From the sequence record MH719082.1: a stretch of DNA of 64,000 bases; one strand, written 5' to 3'. Within the stretch, counting starts at the first letter, position 1. Every line of letters begins with the position of its first letter. The stretch comes from Escherichia phage vB_EcoM_IME392. The notes under the pieces are model-generated. The model was not told the origin of the DNA. It made no database searches and worked only from the letters and a program-made list of their open reading frames with translations. Below are positions 15,953 through 51,193 of this stretch, piece after piece. The translations under genes were made by a program, and so were the position numbers.

Positions 15953-16457
15953 CTGTGTATCCTTTAAGTTTATTTCTATACTTAACCATTTCCTGCTTAG
16001 CTATCTCATCGCAGAGATTATTTACTTTGTAGCGAGGATTATTGAACTTCTGATGACCTTTGACATGCTTAACCTTAATGGACTTAGGGTTAAGATCGCG
16101 AAGCATTTCCATATGCTTATCTATGAATTCCTTTAGTGCCCATTCGCAATCGCATTGGACGACTACTCTAACGCCATCGAACGCTGTCTTAGTCATGGCG
16201 AACCATAAGGTCTTCATGATCCCTTCTAGCTCTGCCCAGTTATTATCTGCAGCAGTAAATCCTCCGCGAGTTATATGAGCTCGCTGCTCACCAGGAAGAC
16301 GAATCCATCCTCCGAAGCCAGCAGCCTTACTCTTATGACAGTACGATGCATCTGAGAAGATTGTTATATACCCAGTAGGGTCCAGACCGCGTTCGGGAGT
16401 ACCCTCAAAGTGGATAACTCTACCAACATCTTTCTCACCGATAGCAGGTTTCTTCAT
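15927..16457 (-). CDS. RNase H (type 1-like)
   Basis: IFSDASY, WAELEGI and VKHVKGH...NNLCDEIAKQ blocks matching RNase HI catalytic DEDD arrangement. Confidence 0.7.
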   Translation of the reverse strand: MKKPAIGEKDVGRVIHFEGTPERGLDPTGYITIFSDASYCHKSKAAGFGGWIRLPGEQRAHITRGGFTAADNNWAELEGIMKTLWFAMTKTAFDGVRVVVQCDCEWALKEFIDKHMEMLRDLNPKSIKVKHVKGHQKFNNPRYKVNNLCDEIAKQEMVKYRNKLKGYTDAGIFSGA

Positions 16458-18025
16458 TACATATCCACCGTAGTTGCCTGGAATAAACCGACTACCATTT
16501 CATGGCTTGGTTTGACTACCGGACTATCGAAGTCGATAGAGCTATTGATGTTCTGGTTAACCATCATCAGGCTACGTACTTCCCAGCAAGCACGATCAGT
16601 CAGTACACGGTGAATTGCTGCGGTATCACCATCCACGTCCATGTTCTGACCACCCATAGCCATCGGAGGAACCTGAATCTCCTTACCCATGTGAGGTCTG
16701 ACCTTAAATCCCCATACTGAGTAACGGTGTAGGGATGGCGCACGGTTCATGAACACCGTAGCATTCTCACACAGTCTCCAGCATACTTCCAGAGCTACTC
16801 GGGACTTATTCTTGTACATACGCTGGACTTTATTGCTGATGTCGTACATGTTGTACCCTTCGTTAGTCGGGCCACCATATAAGTTCTCCAGCTCACCCAG
16901 GATGTCTGGCTGAAGTAATTCGTACATCATCTTGAACGGTACACCAAGAGTATCCAGCGGAAGATGAGGAGCCGAAGTAACTACAGAACGACCGGAGTAA
17001 TCAACGCGCTTACCTAACAGGTTACCACGGATTCGACCACCCTTACCTTTAAGGTTATTGATCATCGGCTTAATTAAATTACCTCGATAGTCCTTAGTAC
17101 CCTCCAGGATTAGTCCGTTAACCATCTTCTGCATTACAATAGATTCACGAGGAATCAGAGATAACAGCGCTTCGCTGGCCTCGGCAGTATCGCGAATACT
17201 TCTGATACGGATAGCATGGCGCAGGATTCGCAGGTAGAGTAAGTTAGTTGGATGATACGACATTACCCCATTACTGATACCAACATCACGATAGCTAGGA
17301 GGATTCACCAGCACCGTAGTGTTATAGAAGTCGCTGAACTCCGTATAACCACTATTGATTACTGTAGGATCTTCGCATTCTTCGATATAGGCTTTCATAT
17401 CAGCATGGTTAGCTACCAATGCCTGGATAAGGCTTAGGAGACCTAATTCAGATGACTCATGCTCGGACATACGGCGGATCTTGATCATTACTACTGCGAG
17501 GCGCTTCGTGCTATCCTGAACTGGGATAGTGTTAGAGTAGAACATCGCATACTTCTCACGATCTTCATATTCCGGAAGAGCAGCATTAGCCTCACGAACC
17601 CGCTCCCGATCATCGCCAACCATCTTAGCTGCCAAACCAGCTTCCTGGACTACGAAGCGGTATTTACCGATAAGGAACTGACCGAACTCTCGCTCTGGAA
17701 ACCCGAATAACGCAGCCATGCGTTTGATAGCTAATGGATTCACATAAGGAACGATCGTCTCGATGTGACCCATACGGCGGCGACGAGATTCACGATGCAT
17801 CGCTACCATACCGCATACATTACACGGAGGCGCTCCCATAACCATCTGGTTACCACACTCACACTTACCAGTTACCAGAGGTCCGAAGATACGCTGGCAG
17901 AATAACCCACCAGTGAATGGCTTAGGATCATGGAACTTAAGGTTATACATGCCCATACTGGTTACTTCACCACTGGACTCGGCACGGATTACAGCATCAG
18001 TTGCAATAGATAACTTTAATTTCAT
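16457..18025 (-). CDS. multisubunit RNA polymerase beta-prime subunit, N-terminal portion
   Basis: GLFCQRIFGP...CECG zinc motif, RRRRMGHIE, NLLGKRVDYSGRSVV, NRAPSLHR and NMDVDGD (variant of NADFDGD) in canonical order. Confidence 0.85.
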   Translation of the reverse strand: MKLKLSIATDAVIRAESSGEVTSMGMYNLKFHDPKPFTGGLFCQRIFGPLVTGKCECGNQMVMGAPPCNVCGMVAMHRESRRRRMGHIETIVPYVNPLAIKRMAALFGFPEREFGQFLIGKYRFVVQEAGLAAKMVGDDRERVREANAALPEYEDREKYAMFYSNTIPVQDSTKRLAVVMIKIRRMSEHESSELGLLSLIQALVANHADMKAYIEECEDPTVINSGYTEFSDFYNTTVLVNPPSYRDVGISNGVMSYHPTNLLYLRILRHAIRIRSIRDTAEASEALLSLIPRESIVMQKMVNGLILEGTKDYRGNLIKPMINNLKGKGGRIRGNLLGKRVDYSGRSVVTSAPHLPLDTLGVPFKMMYELLQPDILGELENLYGGPTNEGYNMYDISNKVQRMYKNKSRVALEVCWRLCENATVFMNRAPSLHRYSVWGFKVRPHMGKEIQVPPMAMGGQNMDVDGDTAAIHRVLTDRACWEVRSLMMVNQNINSSIDFDSPVVKPSHEMVVGLFQATTVDM

Positions 18026-19903: not shown

Positions 19904-21418
19904 TTATTTGTTATTCAGATTTAACCCAGCAATGATCATCTCGGAACGGGTTCCGAAGCTAACATCACCATTAAGCACCGCCGAGGTAAGACGCTGCTTA
20001 ACGTTACCGTGGCCGATAGACTTCAACCAGCTAGGATGCTTCGTAGGGATGGCATCAGCTTTAATCGCCAGTACCTCACCTTTATCACCCATGCTGCGAA
20101 CGCCGATTCGTCCGTTATTCATCTTAACTAGATCAGTACATCCACGAGCAATGATCTCATGGTGAATCGATGCGATACCGATACCGATGTCGTCGAAGAT
20201 ATGCTTAAGCTGGATTGATGCTAGCTCTGCACCCTTAATAGCCGAACCAGTTTCGTGGGCAAGATCCGTGATGCACTTATACTTAGACTCAGATACCTGA
20301 GCCACCGCAGTACCTCGGCCACCTACCGTCTTCAGGATATCAGCCAAGGTATTACTTACCGAGGTACCGAATTCCTTAAGCGTAGTCGAACCAGATGTAT
20401 GCTTACCACGAAGACCAGCCTGAGTAGATGGTTCAGATATATGCTGCGCCGACGCCGTTCCAATACCGAAGTTAATCGGGAAGAAGTTAGCTGGCTTAGC
20501 CGGATCCATACCGCAGCAATGCTGACATACCCCACCCTTAGTTGATTCACAGGTAATCGGGCTAAGAACTTTCACATTACCTTCTTCATCTGCTAACTGA
20601 TCAACATTCTCTTTAGTGACCATTACTCGGTCGCTAGTGAATCGATACAGTGCCGATTTCTTAGGTAAGGTAATCACTTCCTTAGTTCCACAGTCCTCTT
20701 CGACAATAGACAGCTCTCTGGAACAGTTAACTAGCTGGCGAGCGAACCACCCAGTCGCAGGTACCAGGAAGAAGTTACCAGCCAGACCCTTACGTGCAGG
20801 TCCGCAGGTATTGAAGTAGTTGATCGGAGATAATCCAGAGCTTAAGTTCTCCATGATCGGCATCGGCATGATCTTACCAGTCATACCCACCAGAAGACCC
20901 TTAGCTACCACCATCGAACGAACCTGGGGAGGAGATACACGAGCACCGGATACACCCATCGCATACAGAGGATTATGACGGTCCACTTCTTTGAACCAGC
21001 GATCAGTACATTCGTTGATCACCTTATCAGCAGCAGCCAGACGATCCTCATACCCCATCTTACCAAGCTCCTGGGTCATAGCTGGGAAGTCAATACCGAA
21101 GTCAAACTTAGTATCGTCATAGCACAGGCTAAGTCCAGACATAGTTGCTTTATGGAATCCGAACTGCTGCAACTTATGTAATCTACGCCCAGCTACTTCC
21201 GGAGTGTAGTTATTATTGATGTGAGAGACGATCTTCGCAGATTCCTTCTTATCGATTTCTTTCTCTGGAAGATAGCCACTGATTTCCCAAATAAACAGTC
21301 GACCGATAGTAGTTTCTTTAGGACCATCAGAGAAGTAAAAACGCACCGGAGTGGTGTAGGTTGCTTCTTTCATATCAATAAGACGGTGTAATTCATTCAA
21401 GGACTTTGATACGATCAT
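19904..21418 (-). CDS. multisubunit RNA polymerase beta-prime subunit, C-terminal portion
   Basis: GVSGARVSPPQVRSM...GPARKGLAGN, EEDCGT, GVCQHCCGMD, ASAQHISEPSTQ blocks colinear with bacterial beta-prime C-terminal half. Confidence 0.8.
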   Translation of the reverse strand: MIVSKSLNELHRLIDMKEATYTTPVRFYFSDGPKETTIGRLFIWEISGYLPEKEIDKKESAKIVSHINNNYTPEVAGRRLHKLQQFGFHKATMSGLSLCYDDTKFDFGIDFPAMTQELGKMGYEDRLAAADKVINECTDRWFKEVDRHNPLYAMGVSGARVSPPQVRSMVVAKGLLVGMTGKIMPMPIMENLSSGLSPINYFNTCGPARKGLAGNFFLVPATGWFARQLVNCSRELSIVEEDCGTKEVITLPKKSALYRFTSDRVMVTKENVDQLADEEGNVKVLSPITCESTKGGVCQHCCGMDPAKPANFFPINFGIGTASAQHISEPSTQAGLRGKHTSGSTTLKEFGTSVSNTLADILKTVGGRGTAVAQVSESKYKCITDLAHETGSAIKGAELASIQLKHIFDDIGIGIASIHHEIIARGCTDLVKMNNGRIGVRSMGDKGEVLAIKADAIPTKHPSWLKSIGHGNVKQRLTSAVLNGDVSFGTRSEMIIAGLNLNNK

Positions 21419-31857: not shown

Positions 31858-32931
31858 TTATTCCAGAATGAACGGAGACTTATCCCAGAGGCGGTTCGCG
31901 ACCCATTTCACGAATGGTGAATTAACCAGATGCTCGCACTGGATAGACATGTGAGCTCCAGTAGTCTTGCACAGGTAATGAGCACCTGCTAACCACATCA
32001 TCACATCCAGAGTTGATCCTGGTTGGAACTCTCGACCAACATCTTCCATTACGTATTCTAGAATACTGTGATCGCTATTATAACGAGAAGCAGCATCTTC
32101 AAGAGTAGCGATGTAATGCTGGAAGTAGGTACGGATCTTATACCAGGAATTAAGTGATCCGAGATCAATCGTAGTTACCGGAGCTTCATTAATGTCGTCA
32201 ACATAAGCTCGGATATTACTTACCTGCTTCTTGATGTTCGACACTTCCGGATACCAGTGGAGATCATCCGTCATCACCACATAGTTGCCCATATCTACTT
32301 TGAGCATAGTTGCGATGATTTCCTGGATGATCGTGAACTCCACCAGATTAACGTTAGTCAATCCCCAGATTAGATCATTACTACGGTTGAATACCGTGCA
32401 GTCCAGACCACCATTACGGTACTTAAACGATAGAGCAATGTTGCAGATCATATCTGCGGTATTGATGCTGCCGATGCTGTTTACCAAACCTACATCAGAA
32501 TCACGGCTGGGATCGTGAATAGTAGCCACGCACTTACGGTTACCCAGGTCAGAACGGAGGCGGTCTGTTACAGTCTGGAGTTGATCGTAGTTATACAGAC
32601 GCTCACCGTAAGCACCACGCCAGGTAACCATATCATCGCTAAACATCTTAGCGCGAGGAACCATAATCGACATCCAGTTATCGATTGCATAGCCACCAGA
32701 CAGTACCCACAATACTTCCCCCATAATTCCGAGGATATTGTCTTTACGTTCTGGATGAGCCATCCAACGATTAATCGGATTACTTAACTCAACTACAGCA
32801 TGACCGATGGATACTACCGCCGAAGAGTTAACAGAAGTTCTGGACTTCTGCAACTCACCAGCCTTATCCATAGTATTGATGCTGTTAACCAGGATTTCAG
32901 TATTACTGTTACCGCGAATTACCGAGATCAT
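31858..32931 (-). CDS. thymidylate synthase-fold pyrimidine methylase/hydroxymethylase
   Basis: ADMICNIALSF...LDCTVFNRSNDLIWGLTNVNLVEFTII colinear with ThyA PCH...[26 protein letters not shown] core, catalytic Cys retained. Confidence 0.6.
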   Translation of the reverse strand: MISVIRGNSNTEILVNSINTMDKAGELQKSRTSVNSSAVVSIGHAVVELSNPINRWMAHPERKDNILGIMGEVLWVLSGGYAIDNWMSIMVPRAKMFSDDMVTWRGAYGERLYNYDQLQTVTDRLRSDLGNRKCVATIHDPSRDSDVGLVNSIGSINTADMICNIALSFKYRNGGLDCTVFNRSNDLIWGLTNVNLVEFTIIQEIIATMLKVDMGNYVVMTDDLHWYPEVSNIKKQVSNIRAYVDDINEAPVTTIDLGSLNSWYKIRTYFQHYIATLEDAASRYNSDHSILEYVMEDVGREFQPGSTLDVMMWLAGAHYLCKTTGAHMSIQCEHLVNSPFVKWVANRLWDKSPFILE

Positions 32932-33739: not shown

Positions 33740-34711
33740 CTAGCTAAACTTATACCAGCGAGGTCTCATACGGATCTCGTGATTCAGTTTATGTAGTTTC
33801 GAGAATTCGCAGAATGAGTTGGTGAACATCTGACGAGTATAGAACCGCTCATCCTCCGGCATGAAGTGGAACCATTTCTCCGGCTCCCATGCATACCCGA
33901 AATGAGCACATATCTCTTTGATGTTCTGATACCACCATTCCACGAACATCTGGTAGCCGCAAGGAGGGTTCTGGTCATTAAGCATGTACCATACCCCATC
34001 CTGCGTCCCGGGTCCACATACGATAGCATCGTTATCTGTGTACGCAGTCTCTTTAGAGTAGGACATAGTTGCCCAGCATTGATATGCCATGAACGGACCT
34101 AATCCAGATACCTGTAACAGATGCTCGATGGCCTCGGTAGCGAACGGAGACTTCCATGCCAGTAAGATAGGATCACTGTAGGTCTTCACCAGATAGGCTC
34201 TGGCAGCTACACTGTACTTAATATCCTCTGGACATACTTCATTAGCCATCTTAACTGCTGTGCTAAGGAAGTAGGCATTTGATTGCTGTGGAGCAGTGAA
34301 CGGAGGACCATCCTCATAACGACGTAGCTCTTCACGACCCATGTTATGTATGTCGTCATAGCTCATCTCATAAAGAGGAAGGACTCTGCGGAAGCGATCC
34401 ATATATGAATCACCACGGTTTATCATCTGGAAGAGTACCACGTTAAGCGCCTTACTCTCCCAGCTTAGGGAATCGTTCTCCAGAATGTTCTTGATAGCCC
34501 ATACTGTTTCACGATCGTGCTTACGGAACACGTTAGTGAATTTAAACTTACTAATCCACTTATGTTCTGTCCACGGAGGAGGTAGCTTAAGTATCTCCTT
34601 CTTATAATAAACCTCAGTCCGCTCGCGGTTATACTCCACATACTCACGTAGCTCCTCGGGATTTATCATCCCGAGTAACCCGTCGAAGTGCAAACCTAAC
34701 GGTTTAGACAT
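33740..34711 (-). CDS. hypothetical protein (323 aa) in modification cluster
   Basis: ORF track; position between kinase and glycosyltransferase. Confidence 0.5.
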   Translation of the reverse strand: MSKPLGLHFDGLLGMINPEELREYVEYNRERTEVYYKKEILKLPPPWTEHKWISKFKFTNVFRKHDRETVWAIKNILENDSLSWESKALNVVLFQMINRGDSYMDRFRRVLPLYEMSYDDIHNMGREELRRYEDGPPFTAPQQSNAYFLSTAVKMANEVCPEDIKYSVAARAYLVKTYSDPILLAWKSPFATEAIEHLLQVSGLGPFMAYQCWATMSYSKETAYTDNDAIVCGPGTQDGVWYMLNDQNPPCGYQMFVEWWYQNIKEICAHFGYAWEPEKWFHFMPEDERFYTRQMFTNSFCEFSKLHKLNHEIRMRPRWYKFS

Positions 34712-44088: not shown

Positions 44089-44120
44089 TTTAACAGCCTT
44101 TGGAGGCCTCAAAGGAGCGG
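44089..44120 (-). promoter_or_regulatory. 31-bp conserved intergenic motif
   Basis: Upstream of topoisomerase ATPase gene start at 44053. Confidence 0.5.
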
Positions 44121-44752
44121 TTCACGAACAGGACTAAATCCTCTACTCTGGACTTATCTACCCACTCTGTTCTTCCTGGTAAGGACCTATTAGACTCGGA
44201 GAAGAAAGATAATCTCACTTTTGATTCTAAATCCACTCCCTCTTCTTTAGGCATCTCGATTAAGATTAGCGGGGTCATACCGATGCCTAATCCATCTAAT
44301 CTTCTTTCTATATTTGAAGTAATCCCATATTTAGCATTTCCAGATTGGTCCAATACGATATAAAAGACCACCTTACCTTCTGGAATGGTAGATATCGCTA
44401 GGTTCTTAATCACAGAGTTAGCGTATTCAGGATTCAACCATCGTTTATGATTTGAAGAGGATATCACTTTAGACATCTTCTTCTGGTAGTTCTCATCTTC
44501 CCACATTTTAATGTTGCGATTAGTCATGGAAACAGACCTAGCCCTGGTGGCGCATTCTGATCTTCCACATGTAGGACGATAGCCCTTAATCACGGATTTA
44601 AAGGAGCAGGGTTTTCCACATGAACATATTTTTACAGGAAAGAATTTTAAGTAATATTCATGCGGAGTTAAGCCATGAGATTTGGCATGGGAGGGAAATG
44701 CCTGGCCTCTTACTTCGGCAGAGCATATTCTACATTTATGATTCATAATCAT
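44090..44752 (-). CDS. putative GIY-YIG-like endonuclease with N-terminal zinc-binding region
   Basis: FYIVL...YGITSNIERRL resembles GIY-(x10)-YIG with downstream Arg; N-terminal Cys/His cluster. Confidence 0.35.
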   Translation of the reverse strand: MIMNHKCRICSAEVRGQAFPSHAKSHGLTPHEYYLKFFPVKICSCGKPCSFKSVIKGYRPTCGRSECATRARSVSMTNRNIKMWEDENYQKKMSKVISSSNHKRWLNPEYANSVIKNLAISTIPEGKVVFYIVLDQSGNAKYGITSNIERRLDGLGIGMTPLILIEMPKEEGVDLESKVRLSFFSESNRSLPGRTEWVDKSRVEDLVLFVNRSFEASKGC

Positions 44753-45335: not shown

Positions 45336-45352
45336 ATAATCTACACAAAAAT

Positions 45353-45368
45353 GGGGTCCGAAGACCCC
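45353..45368 (-). terminator. intrinsic terminator (UUCG-tetraloop hairpin plus U-tract)
   Basis: GGGGUC-UUCG-GACCCC followed by AUUUUUGUG, just after stop of SbcCD-like gene. Confidence 0.6.
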
Positions 45369-45373
45369 ATCAA

Positions 45374-48139
45374 CTACTCTTCCATAAACGTAGTTACGTT
45401 ATTGGAAAGGTAGGCACCAATTTTAGTGTTATATCTCTGGAAGGTAGGAACATGGGTAACCAGGATGATGTGGTTAACCGGAATGTCCTGAAGAGCATCA
45501 ATAGCTACGTCCAGAGTATTTACGTCCAGATTTCGCAGAGACTCATCCAGAATCAGACATCCTGCTCCCTTACTGAGGCTAATCAGCTTACCGATGAACA
45601 GTACGTCCACCAGGTTCTGTTGGCCACCAGACAGATCAGCATACGGAATTAACAGATCTCCAACTTTGTATTGAACATCGAAGTCAATCTTGATAGCTCC
45701 GTTAGCCTGTTCACGAACAGTAGAAATTACCATATCTCCACCAGTCATCATAGCAGCTACTTCTTTGAAGATAGAAGCAGTTACATCGCCGCTATTAGTG
45801 AACAGGCTCTGATACTCAACCAGTTTCTGATACTTAGGCTGGAGAATAGCCAACTGCGCATTAGCATCGTCGAGTTTCTTCTGAGCCTCGTCCATACGAG
45901 TCTTCAGACTACGAAGAGTAGCCATAGCGCCGATGGTAGAGTTGATCTCGATTAGCTCCTGCTCCAGCTTAGCCACTTCCTCTTCGAGAACCTGCACGGA
46001 AGGATAGGACTTAGTCTTACTCTTAAGCACTTCCACGTCGCTATTAACGGTATGGATCTTCTGACGAAGAGTAGCCACATCGTTCAGCAGACCGGACTTA
46101 CGTCTTAGTTCGGCTAATTCACTATTCTTAACGTTAAGCTTCTCTCTGAGTTCATCAGACTTAGGAGCCTTACTGATCTCAGCCTCGACAGCATCCAGCT
46201 TAGTAACAGATGCAGATCCTTGGGTTTCGAGATCATCCATCTTAGCTCTGATAGACTTCTCTACTTCTTTAATGTCCTCTTCCTTAAGGGACTGCTTACA
46301 GGTTGGGCACGTAGTAGGGATGTTGCGCATCTCGGTCTCGAGCTTAGTTAACTCCTTCTCTAAGCGAGTTAACTCATTAGTCAGAGATTCACTCTGATTA
46401 TGCAGTGACCGGATGTTACCTTCTACTTCAGATACCTCGGCATCCAGAGTAGTGATTTCGTCCCGGACCTTAGCGAGAGCGGAGTTAACCTCCTCTTCGT
46501 TAAAGTCAATCTTGAACGCAGCCAGAGAATCTTCCAGCATCTGGAGACTCTGTAGCTTACTGTCCAGATTACCCAGCTCACGGATCTTCTGACGAATATC
46601 ATCAATCTGTGGCAGGATTCGAGACTTATCTTCTTCCAGATTACTCACGTCCTTAAGTTTGGAGAAGTCGTGATCCTCCATGGTCTTAAGGACTTCTTCC
46701 TGAGCAGTTACCTGGGTCTGATAGTTACTGATCTCTACCTTACAGTTCTTAGCCGAGGCCTTTGCGACAGCTTCGTACTGGTTAATTACGGTAAGACCGA
46801 GCATCTTCGTGATCAGGTTAATACGTTCGTTGAATCCGAACTGGCTCAAGAACGGAGGACTATTCTGGGAACGATACAGAAGATCGAAGTGTTCGAGGAA
46901 TGGCAACATCTCCCAGAGCTTAGCTTCACGCTCTCGGATACTACCACCATCCATCTCATCACCATCAATCCAGACTCGGAAAGTCTGACCACCAGCCCAA
47001 TGGCGACTGATCAGGAATTCACGACCACCATACTCTAGCATCACTTCTACCAGAAGATGGTCTTGACCGCGTCTCACCACGTTACGAGGACTGTCGCTAC
47101 CAGTTAAGCAGTAGTTAAGAGCTCTCAGCAACGAGGATTTACCGTTACCAGTTTCGCCGTAGAGATAAGTAAGACCTCGCTTAAAGTTAAGCTCCAGCTT
47201 ATCAATACTGCGGAAGTTCTCTACCTTAATACTATTCAAGGTAAAGTTAAGGTCGAAGACCGACTCGGAACGATCAACGTGGGTAGACATCTCATCATGG
47301 ATATCTTTAAGACCCTTTGCCCGAACGACTTTGTCGATTACTTCTTCAACATCGATAGATTTAACTGAGATGCGTGAAGCATCCATCATCTGAGCTCTTT
47401 CACGAACTACCAGATGAGGGTAATTATCCATACCGGCAGGTACTTCATCTTCCCAGTACATCTTGAGGTATTTGTAGGAGTCAGACTCTACCGGAACCCG
47501 CTGCCAGGAAAGATCTTTAAGATCCAGCAGCACCAAGCTACCGTCCTGACAGTCACCCATCCCGTGAGGAATAGGTACGTTAACCGAGTGGGTATGACCG
47601 ATGCTGATAGGACGATGGATGTCACCAGCAAATCCCAGCTCATACTTAGTATCGTCGAACTCCTGACCAAACATAGAGGACAGAGTAATGTGGCCAATAA
47701 GGACATCTACTTTATCTTCGATAAAACTGAAGTCCTGGGTAGGACGCCAGTCGCTAAAGGCGACCTTACGGCCACCTAAGTTCAGGATTTTACCATCGAC
47801 ATATTCTGCCTTACCAGCGAGGATCGGCACCAGTGAGTTCTGGTAGTGATCAGCATCTACTGATTTGGAGTTAATGTCGTGGTTACCCAGAATATAATAA
47901 ATCTCGGTAAACTGCTCACCGAGGATCTCCATAAACTGGGATGTAGCGTGTGCAATTTTAGGCTCATGCTGAGCCTTATGCACTAAGTCGCCAGCGATAG
48001 ACAGACAGGTTACTTTATGTTCCCTGCCCATCTCCGCCATACGATGAGCTAAACCGATAAACTGCTTTAAGCGAAACCCTTCCGAGTTATGCTGCTGAAA
48101 TTCATGGATATGAATATCAGCTACGATCAACATTTTCAT
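45374..48139 (-). CDS. fused SbcD/Mre11-like nuclease and SbcC/Rad50-like ATPase
   Basis: N-terminal metallophosphatase motifs (DIHIHE, GDLVH, GNHD, GHTH); then Walker A GETGNGKS, coiled coils with CPTC zinc hook, signature LSGGQQ and Walker B ILDES in one 921-aa ORF. Confidence 0.8.
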   Translation of the reverse strand: MKMLIVADIHIHEFQQHNSEGFRLKQFIGLAHRMAEMGREHKVTCLSIAGDLVHKAQHEPKIAHATSQFMEILGEQFTEIYYILGNHDINSKSVDADHYQNSLVPILAGKAEYVDGKILNLGGRKVAFSDWRPTQDFSFIEDKVDVLIGHITLSSMFGQEFDDTKYELGFAGDIHRPISIGHTHSVNVPIPHGMGDCQDGSLVLLDLKDLSWQRVPVESDSYKYLKMYWEDEVPAGMDNYPHLVVRERAQMMDASRISVKSIDVEEVIDKVVRAKGLKDIHDEMSTHVDRSESVFDLNFTLNSIKVENFRSIDKLELNFKRGLTYLYGETGNGKSSLLRALNYCLTGSDSPRNVVRRGQDHLLVEVMLEYGGREFLISRHWAGGQTFRVWIDGDEMDGGSIREREAKLWEMLPFLEHFDLLYRSQNSPPFLSQFGFNERINLITKMLGLTVINQYEAVAKASAKNCKVEISNYQTQVTAQEEVLKTMEDHDFSKLKDVSNLEEDKSRILPQIDDIRQKIRELGNLDSKLQSLQMLEDSLAAFKIDFNEEEVNSALAKVRDEITTLDAEVSEVEGNIRSLHNQSESLTNELTRLEKELTKLETEMRNIPTTCPTCKQSLKEEDIKEVEKSIRAKMDDLETQGSASVTKLDAVEAEISKAPKSDELREKLNVKNSELAELRRKSGLLNDVATLRQKIHTVNSDVEVLKSKTKSYPSVQVLEEEVAKLEQELIEINSTIGAMATLRSLKTRMDEAQKKLDDANAQLAILQPKYQKLVEYQSLFTNSGDVTASIFKEVAAMMTGGDMVISTVREQANGAIKIDFDVQYKVGDLLIPYADLSGGQQNLVDVLFIGKLISLSKGAGCLILDESLRNLDVNTLDVAIDALQDIPVNHIILVTHVPTFQRYNTKIGAYLSNNVTTFMEE

Positions 48140-48993
48140 GCCGACTCCAGTATCTTAGCCGTAACGGATCTGTTATATTTACCCAGTACACCATGGAAGT
48201 ACGGAGGGAATCTGAATCCTGGACAGAACTCTTCCAGAGTAGGTAGGATGCGCTGTTGCATCTGTACCTTAGACTCCTGTTCTTTAATGATGCTGTGGAC
48301 TTCTGTATCGGTTAGGATTCTGTCTAGACGCATCAGTTCCATATTAGAACGAATACGGAATTCAACCGATTGGCTTAAGCTACCATCTTTGTAGGCATTA
48401 ATCGCCTCCTTAACAGTGCTTAATCCAGTAGCCACTCCTGGAATGTTGTCGGAGCCGTCCCCGACGATGGCTTTGTAGATGAGATAATCCTTATGATCGT
48501 CCAGATCGTAGGTCTTCATTAACCAAGGAAGATCCACTAAACCATCGTCAGGATTTAAGACACAAGTATTCTCATTAATTGATAAGTACCAGTCACGGTC
48601 ACGAGAATGCAACATAACCGGACGTCCTGAATGAGCATAGTAGTAGCCTAAATCATCGGCTTCCACACCAGACACCTGGATACACTTAATACCCAATGCT
48701 GGGAAGATCTGCTCATGAAGTACATTCATAGCAGCCCACAATGCCTCAAAGCTCTCGTCATACTCACGATTAGCTTTATACTCCGGATTCTTATCTTTAG
48801 GCCTGTATCTCCACTTGCCTCGATCATATAGCATGATTAGCTCGGAGTTATATCCGTCTTCCTTAATCAACTTCGCTACACTACCAATAGTGGAGGAGAC
48901 CGTAGGACCTAAGTCCTGGGACTTACCGGCTGCGAACCAGTTACGAAGAGTCAGCCACTGACAATCGACTGGTATTAACGGGATGTCATTCAT
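48136..48993 (-). CDS. 5'-3' exonuclease / flap endonuclease
   Basis: GDGSDNIPGV helix-hairpin-helix motif typical of FEN / Pol I 5' nuclease family. Confidence 0.7.
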   Translation of the reverse strand: MNDIPLIPVDCQWLTLRNWFAAGKSQDLGPTVSSTIGSVAKLIKEDGYNSELIMLYDRGKWRYRPKDKNPEYKANREYDESFEALWAAMNVLHEQIFPALGIKCIQVSGVEADDLGYYYAHSGRPVMLHSRDRDWYLSINENTCVLNPDDGLVDLPWLMKTYDLDDHKDYLIYKAIVGDGSDNIPGVATGLSTVKEAINAYKDGSLSQSVEFRIRSNMELMRLDRILTDTEVHSIIKEQESKVQMQQRILPTLEEFCPGFRFPPYFHGVLGKYNRSVTAKILESA

Positions 48994-49045: not shown

Positions 49046-50056
49046 TTAATTTTTACGGAACTTGGCGAAACGGGAAGCTGCACCACCTTCTTCCTGACCT
49101 TCGTCAGACTTATCTTCGCCGGCATCTTCGACTTTATCTTCAGACTTCTCTTCGGACTTAGTTTCAGATTTATCTTCACCAGCTTCGTCAGACTTAGCCT
49201 GATCTTCGGTAGGCTCGGACTTAGCGTCAGACTTAGTATCTTCAACTTTATCGTCTGATTTAGCTTCTTCAGCCTTAGCCTCTTCCTCAGCTTTGAGCTC
49301 TTCGAAGCCATCTTCACCAACTAACGGCAGACCCTTAGCCTTACGCTGGGAGCGAATTTCGTCCAGATCTTTACGGACACGCTTAACCAGACCTACGTAC
49401 TTATCTTTATCGAAACCTTCACGAATATAAGCCTGAGACAGAGGCTGGTAAGTCTGATCCACAACTACCGGATCAGCTTTGCTGAACAGCGGAGTGAAAG
49501 TTACAGATCCCTGGTTACCACGTACCACGGTAATTTTAACCGGAGATCCTTTGACGTCTTTATCCAGCATACCTTCCAGAACTTCTGGAGAGTCTTCCGC
49601 CAGCGCCGTAATGAAGTCGGTCAGTGCGTTAGCCACTTTACCGTTACCGATCACCGCATACAGAGTATTCGGCTTCCAGTTATCAGACGGAGTGTCGGTT
49701 TTCTGCAGGAAGAAGTAGAACAGGATGTTGTACTTCAGACCGTATTTCCAGTGATTGTACTCATTCAGCTCTTCGAGCATGTCATCCAGCTCGGCATAGT
49801 TGAAGTTCTCAGGAAGATCTTCACAGTCAGACGGAGTCTGAATACCATAACTGAAGTAACCGTGAGTACGGACTTCGCGATACAGGTTACCGACAGGGTC
49901 AGTGATGATACGACCCTGATGGCTACCTTCTGGTAAGAACGTAGCATTTGGGAAGTTACCGGTACCGCCGGACTTCTCTTTACGTTCTTTCATTTTACCT
50001 GCGAGGGCTTTGATACCGGCTACGTCTAACTTCTTAACTTGAGTTTGTTCAGTCAT
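49046..50056 (-). CDS. putative ssDNA-binding protein with acidic low-complexity tail
   Basis: Position between nuclease and helicase genes; long acidic C-terminal region; terminator downstream; no diagnostic motif. Confidence 0.35.
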   Translation of the reverse strand: MTEQTQVKKLDVAGIKALAGKMKERKEKSGGTGNFPNATFLPEGSHQGRIITDPVGNLYREVRTHGYFSYGIQTPSDCEDLPENFNYAELDDMLEELNEYNHWKYGLKYNILFYFFLQKTDTPSDNWKPNTLYAVIGNGKVANALTDFITALAEDSPEVLEGMLDKDVKGSPVKITVVRGNQGSVTFTPLFSKADPVVVDQTYQPLSQAYIREGFDKDKYVGLVKRVRKDLDEIRSQRKAKGLPLVGEDGFEELKAEEEAKAEEAKSDDKVEDTKSDAKSEPTEDQAKSDEAGEDKSETKSEEKSEDKVEDAGEDKSDEGQEEGGAASRFAKFRKN

Positions 50057-50152: not shown

Positions 50153-51193
50153 CTACACTTTACGCAATCGATCTATCATTTTAGCACGATGCTGCTCTTC
50201 TGTATTGATGATCGAGTACATACGAACCAACACTGACGGATCATTATCCACTCTGTTAGCCAACTTATCCAGAGCTCCTAAGTAGATACTGGTTTCTTCC
50301 TTGATTACCTTACGGACTGAGTCAGCGAAGGTAAATCCAATACTGTCTGGGTCGAACGTAATACCGTCCAGCATCACAGCCAGCATGACATTATCCTGGA
50401 AGATATCTGACTTAATGGAATCCAGCACGCTATTCTTGCGCACTGCTTCCAATATAGAAACTACCTTAGATACCTTCGGGAACCCTTTCCGGCCATTTAG
50501 TAATTCCAGGAAGGTAAAGAACTTGCCTATGTCTTTGATAGATGTGAGCAGCAGAAACAGTTCCGGATGGTGCTCTGCTAGGATCGACAGAAACATCATC
50601 TTCTCTGTATTCGTCTTAGGAATCAGATCCTGTATCGCTTTAATATCTACGTCGGTCACGATTGCTCCCATGTGTTCGAGTATGCGAGTCACGATGATCC
50701 TGTCTGTAAGATCAAGATGCTCGACCATAACCACTCCCCAGTCTAAATATAGCTGGATGATAGGTTTAAATCGTTTAGGGAGGAACTGATTCCAAAGATT
50801 AACATAGCGATGGACAGCTACCTCCTGTCGCACGCTGTAACTATTGCCTAACTCCAGAGCCTTGTAAAAATCTGAGTTCTCGGCTAATTCGGGTTCTAAC
50901 ATGTCGATCGATACTTGCTTTACTTCTTTCTTAATTATCGATTCTAGATGATCCCGAGTAACTTCTTCTGTAGTAGTTAACAGCATGTAGGTCAGGCTGG
51001 TTACTGCAGAAGATAATGCCTCTTCGGTCTGTCCTCTGAATTTATAATAAGTACACACCCGTCGGACGATCGCCAGGGATAGGGTGAATAGGGTACGAGA
51101 ATCCCTCTTCACTGAATTAATTTCCCTATTCACCAGTTCCACTAGCTTATCGACGGTAGCGTTCTCGAGGATCTCTACCATCTCTTTTATCAT
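50153..51193 (-). CDS. hypothetical protein (346 aa)
   Basis: ORF track. Confidence 0.5.
   Translation of the reverse strand: MIKEMVEILENATVDKLVELVNREINSVKRDSRTLFTLSLAIVRRVCTYYKFRGQTEEALSSAVTSLTYMLLTTTEEVTRDHLESIIKKEVKQVSIDMLEPELAENSDFYKALELGNSYSVRQEVAVHRYVNLWNQFLPKRFKPIIQLYLDWGVVMVEHLDLTDRIIVTRILEHMGAIVTDVDIKAIQDLIPKTNTEKMMFLSILAEHHPELFLLLTSIKDIGKFFTFLELLNGRKGFPKVSKVVSILEAVRKNSVLDSIKSDIFQDNVMLAVMLDGITFDPDSIGFTFADSVRKVIKEETSIYLGALDKLANRVDNDPSVLVRMYSIINTEEQHRAKMIDRLRKV

What the first reader, a model, noticed from the sequence alone, without database searches (positions are those of the whole stretch)
45374..48139. SbcD/Mre11-like nuclease and SbcC/Rad50-like ATPase fused in one 921-aa ORF
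The metallophosphatase motifs (DIHIHE, GDLVH, GNHD, GHTH) occupy the first ~270 residues and are followed in the same frame by Walker A, coiled coils with a CPTC zinc hook, the ABC signature and Walker B. In bacteria and T4 (gp47/gp46) these are separate polypeptides, so a natural fusion would fix 1:1 stoichiometry and is structurally informative.
Basis: partly seen in the sequence, partly recalled or inferred. Interest (0 to 1): 0.5.

Follow-up and report, generated by a model that had tools for sequence, protein, structure and literature searches.

The report
Single-chain Mre11-Rad50 nuclease of a phage
This phage gene really does encode the DNA-end-processing nuclease Mre11/SbcD and its ATPase partner Rad50/SbcC as one protein, and the fusion is conserved in hundreds of phage lineages, but natural fusions of this kind were already described in 2011, so it is a solid and fairly ordinary find.

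Summary
The 921-aa ORF (45374..48139, minus strand) is real. It encodes an N-terminal Mre11/SbcD-type nuclease (1-246), a disordered linker, a helix-loop-helix (264-285) and a complete Rad50/SbcC ATPase (300-921) with a coiled coil and a CPTC zinc hook.

It is not an assembly artefact:
- 134 of 158 relatives held are 800-1100 aa.
- 23 of 24 related phage loci carry one uninterrupted ORF.
- Against phage EP_H11 there are 75 synonymous and 5 non-synonymous codon changes, none of the latter near the junction.
- All catalytic residues of both halves are conserved.

GHTH (181-184) is not conserved; the real last metal-binding motif is GDIH (172-175).

The gene lies in a replication/recombination module, overlapping the stop of a FEN-type exonuclease gene. 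The likely role is that of T4 gp46/gp47.

Novelty is limited. Mre11/Rad50 fusions in Mimivirus, a Bacillus phage, plasmids and eukaryotes were published in 2011 (PMC3175470). The identical protein is in GenBank as a hypothetical protein of phage vB_EcoM_IME392. This appears to be a separate, large, apparently phage-restricted and uncharacterised clade of a known architecture. Interest 0.25.

The parts
45374..48139 (-). Complete fused Mre11-Rad50 (SbcD-SbcC) gene, 921 codons plus stop
   Evidence: ORF list and translation. Identical to GenBank AXY86089.1 of phage vB_EcoM_IME392.
48145..48148 (-). GGAG ribosome-binding site 6-9 nt upstream of the ATG. The ATG overlaps the TGA stop of the upstream FEN-type exonuclease gene (ATGA).
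   Evidence: Upstream sequence printed; ORF coordinates.
47402..48139 (-). Residues 1-246: Mre11/SbcD-type metallophosphoesterase domain with only a short beta-rich extension where Mre11 has its capping domain. Conserved D8, H10 (motif I), D51 (II), N86/H87 (III), H150 (IV), D173/H175 (V).
47351..47401 (-). Residues 247-263: flexible linker; 250-260 is the only segment with pLDDT below 50.
   Evidence: Full-length AlphaFold model.
47285..47350 (-). Residues 264-285: helix-loop-helix, the putative equivalent of the Mre11 Rad50-binding domain. I268, L277 and H281 are conserved.
47243..47284 (-). Residues 286-299: short tether joining the helix-loop-helix to the first strand of Rad50.
   Evidence: Model. 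Its length is close to the 9-12 residues estimated in PMC3175470 to span the roughly 28 A gap in the T. maritima complex.
46793..47242 (-). Residues 300-449: Rad50 N-terminal ATPase lobe with Walker A G328-S336 and a candidate Q-loop at Q425.
   Evidence: Pfam AAA_23 and SMC_N. PDB Rad50 3aux at E 3e-11. Foldseek top hits are Rad50. Invariant G328, G331, G333, K334, S335; Q425 invariant in A3.
46325..46792 (-). Residues 450-605: ascending coiled-coil arm, with breaks near 488-491 and 540-547.
   Evidence: Model secondary structure.
46283..46324 (-). Residues 606-619: zinc hook; CPTC at 611-614 (nt 46298-46309).
   Evidence: C611 and C614 are invariant. CxxC is present in 98% of 176 full-length relatives. 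It aligns with the CPTC of T4 gp46. Weak Pfam Rad50_zn_hook hit.
45806..46282 (-). Residues 620-778: descending coiled-coil arm.
   Evidence: Model. All five non-synonymous differences from EP_H11 fall within the coiled coil and hook (residues 471-765).
45377..45805 (-). Residues 779-921: Rad50 C-terminal ATPase lobe with signature LSGGQ 836-840, Walker B LILDE 862-866 (E866), a D-loop and H-loop H896.
   Evidence: Motif positions, invariant residues, family frequencies.
45350..45371 (-). Terminator-like hairpin (9-bp stem, 5 G-C pairs, T-rich tail) starting 3 nt after the stop codon.
   Evidence: Terminator scan: 10 sites found against 3.5 expected from shuffles.
48136..48993 (-). Upstream partner gene: 285-aa FEN / 5'-3' exonuclease, probably translationally coupled to the fusion gene.
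   Evidence: Pfam 5_3_exonuc_N and PHROG_107. The same gene lies directly upstream in loci L001 and L006, upstream with one small intervening ORF in L007-L011, and more weakly in L013.

Best explanation
The gene encodes a genuine single-chain Mre11-Rad50 (SbcD-SbcC) enzyme. Two chains would dimerise through the nuclease domains, the ATP-engaged Rad50 heads and the zinc hooks, giving the equivalent of the canonical M2R2 complex. The order of parts is: nuclease, a 17-residue flexible linker, a helix-loop-helix, a 14-residue tether, then the Rad50 head. This keeps the mobile tether of separate-subunit complexes, so the nuclease dimer could still swing between a resting and a cutting position while the helix-loop-helix holds the base of the coiled coil. 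The protein most likely does for this phage what gp46/gp47 does for T4: ATP-dependent processing of DNA ends, hairpins or blocked ends to feed recombination-dependent replication and repair, possibly also host DNA breakdown. The domain identities, motif conservation, the reality of the fusion and the genomic context are shown here. The dimer, the docking of the helix-loop-helix, the enzymatic activities and the in vivo role are inferred.
Confidence: 0.82

Rival explanations
1. Assembly or sequencing artefact: two adjacent genes (sbcD-like and sbcC-like) were joined by a missed stop or frameshift.
For: Adjacent separate genes in that order exist in Listeria phage A511. Related public records do contain assembly problems: the EP_H11 record starts inside this gene, and RHph_TM39 has a duplicated, gapped copy.
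Against: An identical 921-aa protein comes from an independent isolate. Relatives at 22-77% identity are full-length. 23 of 24 loci have one uninterrupted ORF. The junction aligns without a break, and residues 199-299 show 6 synonymous and 0 non-synonymous changes against EP_H11.
Confidence: 0.01
2. An anti-phage or inter-phage defence module of the Lamassu/OLD/Gabija type, that is, an SMC-like or ABC ATPase sensor coupled to a nuclease effector, and not a replication/recombination enzyme.
For: The best PADLOC hit is Lamassu LmuB (E 1e-28 over 298-903), with weaker PtuA, GajA and AriA hits. LmuACB appears among the Foldseek hits.
Against: Rad50 structures outrank LmuB, JetC and MukB. The invariant CxxC hook and the Mre11 fold are Rad50/Mre11 hallmarks. 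No LmuA or LmuC partner lies nearby. The gene is syntenic within the replication module in distant lytic-type phages. No true hit was found in 185,579 cellular genomes.
Confidence: 0.03
3. The main job is degrading unmodified host DNA. The phage's own thymidine-hypermodified DNA would be spared, making the fusion a modification-discriminating nuclease and not primarily a recombination enzyme.
For: The window encodes a 5-hmdU DNA kinase and a thymidylate-synthase homologue. Relatives turn up in literature on T-hypermodified phages. T4 gp46/gp47 is annotated as required for host-DNA degradation.
Against: Nothing in the sequence indicates base-modification sensing. The family also occurs in many phages whose modification status is unknown. 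This role is compatible with, and not exclusive of, the recombination role.
Confidence: 0.1
4. The N-terminal domain is a diverged or inactive metallophosphatase serving only as a dimerisation or DNA-binding module.
For: The motif variants (GDxH; GQH in half the family; reduced capping domain) are. Sequence scores against Mre11 models are weak.
Against: Every metal-ligand position is invariant or conservatively replaced across 72 sequences. Asp at the motif V position is a competent metal ligand in other metallophosphatases (general knowledge) and was also reported for Mimivirus R555.
Confidence: 0.04

Closest known systems
Natural Mre11/Rad50 fusion proteins described by Yoshida, Claverie and Ogata 2011 (Mimivirus R555; Bacillus phage 0305phi8-36 A7KV18; Clostridium kluyveri and Deferribacter plasmids; several eukaryotes), PMC3175470
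   Same: The domain order is the same: N-terminal Mre11-like, then C-terminal Rad50-like, in one ORF. A helix-loop-helix plus a short linker is retained before Rad50. Asp replaces P. furiosus Mre11 His206, and motif II is GDxxH, as reported for R555. The virus carries only the fused copy. The paper predicted that abundant metagenomic homologues come from phages.
   Different: This protein is much shorter than R555 (921 against 1351 aa), with short T4-like coiled coils. Giant-virus fusions and A7KV18 are only 13-16% identical to the nuclease model, no closer than free-standing phage SbcD. That fits an independent or very old fusion, in line with the paper's polyphyly result. A7KV18 lacks one ATPase segment according to the paper, whereas this clade is complete. 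This clade is not named in the paper.
T4 gp47/gp46 (SbcD-like and SbcC-like subunits)
   Same: It is a phage-encoded Mre11-Rad50 with a short coiled coil. The Rad50 half is 20% identical to gp46, with the CPTC hooks aligned. Nuclease motifs I-IV align with gp47. Both lie in a replication/recombination gene region.
   Different: In T4 the two genes are separate, with two small ORFs between them. gp47 has the canonical GDxxD and GHxH motifs and a longer segment after motif IV.
E. coli SbcCD and archaeal/eukaryotic Mre11-Rad50 (structures 6s6v, 3av0, 3qg5, 7zr1)
   Different: It is a single chain with a reduced capping domain and a coiled coil of about 155 residues per arm. It falls far below every curated NCBIfam cut-off.
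Lamassu LmuB and other SMC-like defence ATPases
   Same: They share a Rad50-like head and coiled coil.
   Different: Here there is a covalently attached Mre11-type nuclease, a zinc hook, a replication-module context and no LmuA/LmuC partners.

Membership tests
Mre11/SbcD nuclease | Calcineurin-like phosphoesterase motifs I-V supplying the two-metal site and the catalytic His | tested here: met
   D8/H10, D51, N86/H87, H150 and D173/H175 are invariant or conservatively varied in 72 sequences. Variants are GDxxH in motif II, N or Q in motif III, and GDxH in motif V.
Mre11/SbcD nuclease | Fold closer to Mre11/SbcD than to other metallophosphatases | tested here: met
Mre11/SbcD nuclease | Capping domain following the phosphodiesterase core | tested here: inconclusive
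   Only about 50-60 residues of beta structure (about 190-246) follow motif V. About 229 of 300 residues align to P. furiosus Mre11. Coordinates could not be inspected.
Mre11/SbcD nuclease | C-terminal helix-loop-helix that binds the base of the Rad50 coiled coil | tested here: inconclusive
   A helix-loop-helix is predicted at 264-285 and is conserved. More residues align to Mre11 chains that contain the Rad50-binding domain. Actual contact was not tested.
Mre11/SbcD nuclease | Mn-dependent exo/endonuclease activity and homodimerisation | not testable with these tools
   This needs biochemistry or a multimer prediction.
Rad50/SbcC ATPase | Split ABC head with Walker A, Q-loop, signature, Walker B, D-loop and H-loop | tested here: met
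   G328-S336, Q425, S837-Q840, D865-E866 and H896 are conserved.
Rad50/SbcC ATPase | Antiparallel coiled coil with an apical CxxC zinc hook | tested here: met
   Helices 450-605 and 620-778. C611 and C614 are invariant. CxxC is in 98% of relatives and aligns with the T4 gp46 hook.
Rad50/SbcC ATPase | Closest solved structures are Rad50 and not other SMC-like proteins | tested here: met
   7zr1 Rad50 at E 1e-19, plus 3auy and 3av0, rank ahead of SMC, JetC, MukB and LmuB. phmmer against PDB puts Rad50 first.
Natural Mre11/Rad50 fusion proteins (PMC3175470) | [quoted passage not shown] | tested here: met
Mimivirus R555 clade specifically | Specific sequence relatedness to R555-type giant-virus proteins | tested here: not met
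   Giant-virus fusions of 1215-1389 aa match the nuclease model at 13-16% identity, no better than free-standing phage SbcD. The 1344-aa relative P0044 is an intein-bearing phage allele. The R555 sequence itself was not available for a direct alignment.
Lamassu (LmuB plus LmuA/LmuC) | SMC-like LmuB together with an LmuA effector and LmuC, in a defence context | tested here: not met
   There is LmuB profile similarity only. Neighbours are FEN, helicases and topoisomerase II. Cellular genomes gave no hit.

The most novel reading that the evidence does not exclude
This clade may be an independently evolved, minimal single-chain Mre11-Rad50 whose covalent tether changes how the enzyme works. The helix-loop-helix could bind in trans (domain-swapped) instead of in cis. 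Alternatively, in thymidine-hypermodifying phages, the enzyme could cut unmodified host DNA while sparing modified phage DNA. In either case the 921-aa protein would be an unusually tractable model for the resting-to-cutting transition of Mre11-Rad50.
Probability: 0.1. Interest if true: 0.55.

Novelty: new member of a known kind. Interest (0 to 1): 0.25.

Why it matters
The find corrects annotation. The identical GenBank protein is labelled 'hypothetical'. In EP_H11 the gene is cut by the record start. Relatives are variously called SbcC-like, SbcD-like, SMC ATPase or 'coil containing protein'. It also puts complete phage genomes behind the 2011 inference that abundant R555-like metagenomic sequences come from phages. 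The clade has at least 228 clusters at 50% identity (E <= 1e-10). It is compact, retains every catalytic motif, and is the only Mre11-Rad50 in its genomes. That makes it a convenient single-gene, single-chain system for structural and genetic study of Mre11-Rad50 mechanics. It does not open a new biological question on its own.

Tried and rejected
- **Collection scans.** The 17-sequence alignment had no stretch conserved enough to search with. Patterns from the single protein found nothing in the viral collection. A tighter 8-sequence alignment worked.
- **P0044 (1344 aa) as a Mimivirus R555 homologue.** Rejected. It is a 930-aa phage fusion carrying an intein.
- **RHph_TM39 as a split or intermediate form.** Rejected. 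Its two 'genes' share an identical N-terminal sequence and the record contains Ns, so it is an assembly duplication.
- **A511-type Listeria phages as another fusion.** A 1009-aa LMTA-57 entry matched the nuclease model, but A511 itself has two separate adjacent genes. The LMTA-57 entry was not resolved.
- **Short hits to the nuclease half as free-standing nucleases.** Most end inside the Rad50 N-lobe and are contig-end fragments. Two (P0030, P0138) remain unexplained.
- **Internal translation start near the junction.** No candidate has a Shine-Dalgarno sequence.
- **Lamassu or other defence reading.** Rejected on context and fold ranking.
- **Curated family names.** No NCBIfam model approaches its cut-off.
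- **Neighbours p336 and p346.** No Pfam, PHROG or PDB relatives.
- **Promoter scan.** Not above chance: 9 found against 8.6 expected.
- **Literature.** Phrase searches for a fusion initially found nothing. The key paper surfaced only with gp46/gp47 terms. No later biochemical or structural work on such fusions was found.
- **First T4 fetch.** The coordinates were wrong and the fetch was repeated.
Full report
**Observation**

The window has a 921-codon ORF on the minus strand at 45374..48139.
- It starts at an ATG preceded by GGAG 6-9 nt upstream, and an in-frame stop lies six codons further up.
  - Nuclease half: DIHIHE 8-13, GDLVH 50-54, GNHD 85-88, GHTH 181-184.
  - ATPase half: GETGNGKSS 328-336, CPTC 611-614, LSGGQ 836-840, LILDE 862-866, VTHV 894-897.
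- Profile searches support both halves:
  - Pfam Metallophos at 1-185 (E 1.7e-9), AAA_23 and SMC_N from residue 301, and a weak Rad50 zinc-hook hit at 609-639.
  - PHROG_77 'SbcC-like subunit' over 294-915 (E 1.3e-49).
  - PDB Rad50 of M. jannaschii (E 3e-11), and weakly P. furiosus Mre11 for residues 1-94.

**Is the fusion real?**

Four independent lines say yes.
1. **Full-length relatives in isolated phages.** tblastn against phage genomes finds single-piece, full-length matches in Acinetobacter phage Ab1-TPeters (37%), Ralstonia RP13 (35%), several Rhizobium phages (29%) and Vibrio phages (25%), plus Thermus phiLo in two aligned pieces and partial-length matches (79-92% of the query) in Yersinia phages.
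2. **Full-length relatives in metagenomes.**
   - The large protein collection returns 19 relatives, nearly all 898-1036 aa at about 100% coverage.
   - An exhaustive search with the nuclease half alone (residues 1-295) finds 360 cluster representatives, 228 of them at E <= 1e-10.
   - Of the 158 proteins then held, 134 are 800-1100 aa with the nuclease at residues 1-300. Most short ones stop inside the Rad50 N-lobe, so they are contig-end fragments.
3. **Uninterrupted ORFs at the DNA level.** In 24 related loci (two isolates and 22 IMG/VR contigs of up to 185 kb), 23 have a single 913-941-aa ORF. The exception runs off its contig.
4. **Purifying selection through the junction.** Against the 96%-identical phage EP_H11, 724 codons show 75 synonymous and 5 non-synonymous differences. 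Residues 199-299, which span the junction, have none of the latter, and all five lie in the coiled coil.

No candidate start codon near the junction has a ribosome-binding site.

The protein is identical at all 921 residues to GenBank AXY86089.1, a 'hypothetical protein' of Escherichia phage vB_EcoM_IME392. It is also in the BFVD library as UniProt A0A385IRC9.

**Anatomy**

A family-alignment AlphaFold model of the full protein (mean pLDDT 84.9) gives this layout:

| Residues | Element |
|---|---|
| 1-246 | alpha/beta nuclease domain |
| 247-263 | linker; 250-260 is the only disordered stretch |
| 264-274 and 278-285 | two short helices (helix-loop-helix) |
| 286-299 | short tether |
| 300-449 | Rad50 N-lobe |
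| 450-605 and 620-778 | antiparallel coiled coil |
| 606-619 | hook |
| 779-921 | Rad50 C-lobe |

- Foldseek against the PDB puts Rad50 first (7zr1 at E 1e-19, then 3auy and 3av0), ahead of SMC, JetC, MukB and LmuB.
- Mre11/SbcD chains that include the Rad50-binding helices align over 243-261 residues, against about 229 for nuclease-plus-cap constructs. This fits, but does not prove, that helices 264-285 are the Rad50-binding element.

**Motifs**

- In 17- and 72-sequence alignments the invariant nuclease residues are D8, H10, G50-D51, H87, H150 and G172-D173-x-H175.
- Alignment with T4 gp47 (GHFH) and A511 gp045 (GHYH) shows that GDIH occupies the motif V position, with Asp in place of the first His.
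- Among the 176 full-length relatives held:
  - Motif V is GDxH in 95%.
  - Motif III is GNH in 46% and GQH in 51%.
  - CxxC is present in 98%.
  - The ABC signature is present in 97%.
- The Rad50 motifs (Walker A, signature, Walker B D865-E866) are invariant in the 17-sequence alignment and H896 is nearly so; Q425 is invariant in the 8 closest sequences.

**Context**

In transcription order on the minus strand, the neighbourhood is:
1. A DNA helicase and a DnaB-like helicase.
2. Two conserved unknowns, p346 and the acidic-tailed p336.
3. A FEN-type 5'-3' exonuclease whose stop overlaps the fusion's ATG.
4. The fusion gene, followed at once by a terminator-like hairpin.
5. Small ORFs.
6. The two topoisomerase II subunits.

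The p336, FEN, fusion order is conserved in the closer relatives.

There is no second Mre11 or Rad50 gene in the window. None is annotated in the complete 110-kb genome of Ab1-TPeters. A pattern-based scan of 185,579 bacterial and archaeal genomes found no true relative, so the clade looks phage-restricted, within the limits of that prefilter.

**Mechanism**

The most likely reading is a single-chain Mre11-Rad50 that forms a homodimer equivalent to M2R2.
- The flexible linker and helix-loop-helix preserve the tether that lets the nuclease dimer reposition on ATP hydrolysis.
- The 14-residue connection to Rad50 is close to the 9-12 residues estimated from the T. maritima complex (PMC3175470).
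- By analogy with T4 gp46/gp47 (the Rad50 half is 20% identical to gp46, with hooks aligned), and given the replication-module context, it probably processes DNA ends for recombination-dependent replication and repair.
- The activities, the dimer and the in vivo role are all inferred.

**Rivals**
- **Artefact.** Excluded, as set out above.
- **Lamassu-like defence.** LmuB profile similarity reaches E 1e-28. The reading is disfavoured by fold ranking, the zinc hook, the Mre11 domain, the context and the absence from cellular genomes.
- **Host-DNA degradation.** This is possible and not exclusive. It is suggested by the phage's 5-hmdU DNA kinase and thymidylate-synthase homologue.
- **Inactive nuclease domain.** Unlikely, given invariant metal ligands.

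**Comparison with what is known**

Natural Mre11/Rad50 fusions were first described by Yoshida, Claverie and Ogata in 2011 (PMC3175470).
- Their examples were Mimivirus R555, Bacillus phage 0305phi8-36, Clostridium and Deferribacter plasmids, and several eukaryotes.
- They noted the retained helix-loop-helix, the short linker, and the Asp-for-His206 and GDxxH substitutions in R555.
- They also inferred that abundant R555-like metagenomic reads come from phages.

The present clade shares the architecture and those two quirks. However, GDxxH also occurs in the free-standing A511 gp045. Giant-virus fusions and A7KV18 are only 13-16% identical to the nuclease model, no closer than free-standing phage SbcD. 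I therefore file it as a separate clade of a known kind, consistent with the paper's conclusion that fusions arose more than once.

I found no biochemical or structural study of any natural fusion in the searched library. No curated NCBIfam model covers it.

**Verdict**

The implied novelty is overstated. Interest is 0.25, and the novelty class is 'new member of a known kind'.

Noticed in passing
window 44090-44752 (-), within the segment 44124-44760: A 220-aa ORF lies in a roughly 640-bp segment that is absent from the otherwise 93-96% identical phage EP_H11. It has a Cys-rich N-terminus and a GIY-YIG-like pattern in its C-terminal half (my reading of the sequence; there is no Pfam hit and only a weak PHROG_8130 match). 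It is possibly a free-standing homing endonuclease inserted between the fusion gene cluster and topoisomerase II.
   Followed up: partly
relatives P0044, P0197, P0198, P0199, P0017, probably P0150 (not in the window): Some alleles of this fused gene carry inteins (Pfam PF14890). P0044 (1344 aa) is 97% identical to the 930-aa P0045 apart from an insertion of about 414 aa. In P0150 the Walker A motif is displaced to residue 740.
   Followed up: partly
window 33740-34711 (-) and 31858-32931 (-): A 5-hmdU DNA kinase (Pfam HMUDK_hel, E 3e-35) and a thymidylate-synthase homologue suggest that this phage hypermodifies thymidine in its DNA. Relatives of the fusion turn up in literature on T-hypermodified phages.
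   Followed up: partly
window 16457-18025 (-) and 19904-21418 (-): Two ORFs match phage RNA polymerase beta-subunit families (PHROG 2987, 3015 and 25354). This suggests a split, phage-encoded multisubunit RNA polymerase. Ralstonia RP13 has an annotated beta-prime subunit near its fusion gene.
   Followed up: no
L003 (EP_H11, OP688485.1) and L030 (RHph_TM39, MN988559.1): There are problems in public records of this gene. The EP_H11 record starts inside the gene, so only a 695-aa 'hypothetical protein' is annotated. RHph_TM39 carries a duplicated, N-gapped assembly that is annotated as two proteins.
   Followed up: yes
family alignment; window residue N86 (nt 47882-47884): The motif III metal ligand is Asn here but Gln (GQHD) in about half of the family. 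This is an unusual substitution for Mre11-type nucleases.
   Followed up: partly
window 49046-50056 (-) and 50153-51193 (-): Two conserved genes sit between the DnaB-like helicase and FEN: p336, which has a long acidic C-terminal tail and looks SSB-like by eye, and p346. Neither has Pfam, PHROG or PDB relatives, yet both are syntenic in distant relatives. They are candidate SSB or recombination mediator proteins.
   Followed up: partly
BFVD entry A0A068CB47 (Listeria phage LMTA-57, 1009 aa): This entry is annotated as a single 1009-aa 'recombination exonuclease' and matches the nuclease model, whereas the related phage A511 has separate 350-aa and 627-aa genes. It could be another natural fusion or an annotation or sequencing error.
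   Followed up: no
proteins P0030 (339 aa) and P0138 (296 aa): These are two short relatives of the nuclease half whose C-termini do not obviously run into Rad50 sequence. They might be genuine free-standing versions, or frameshifted copies.
   Followed up: no
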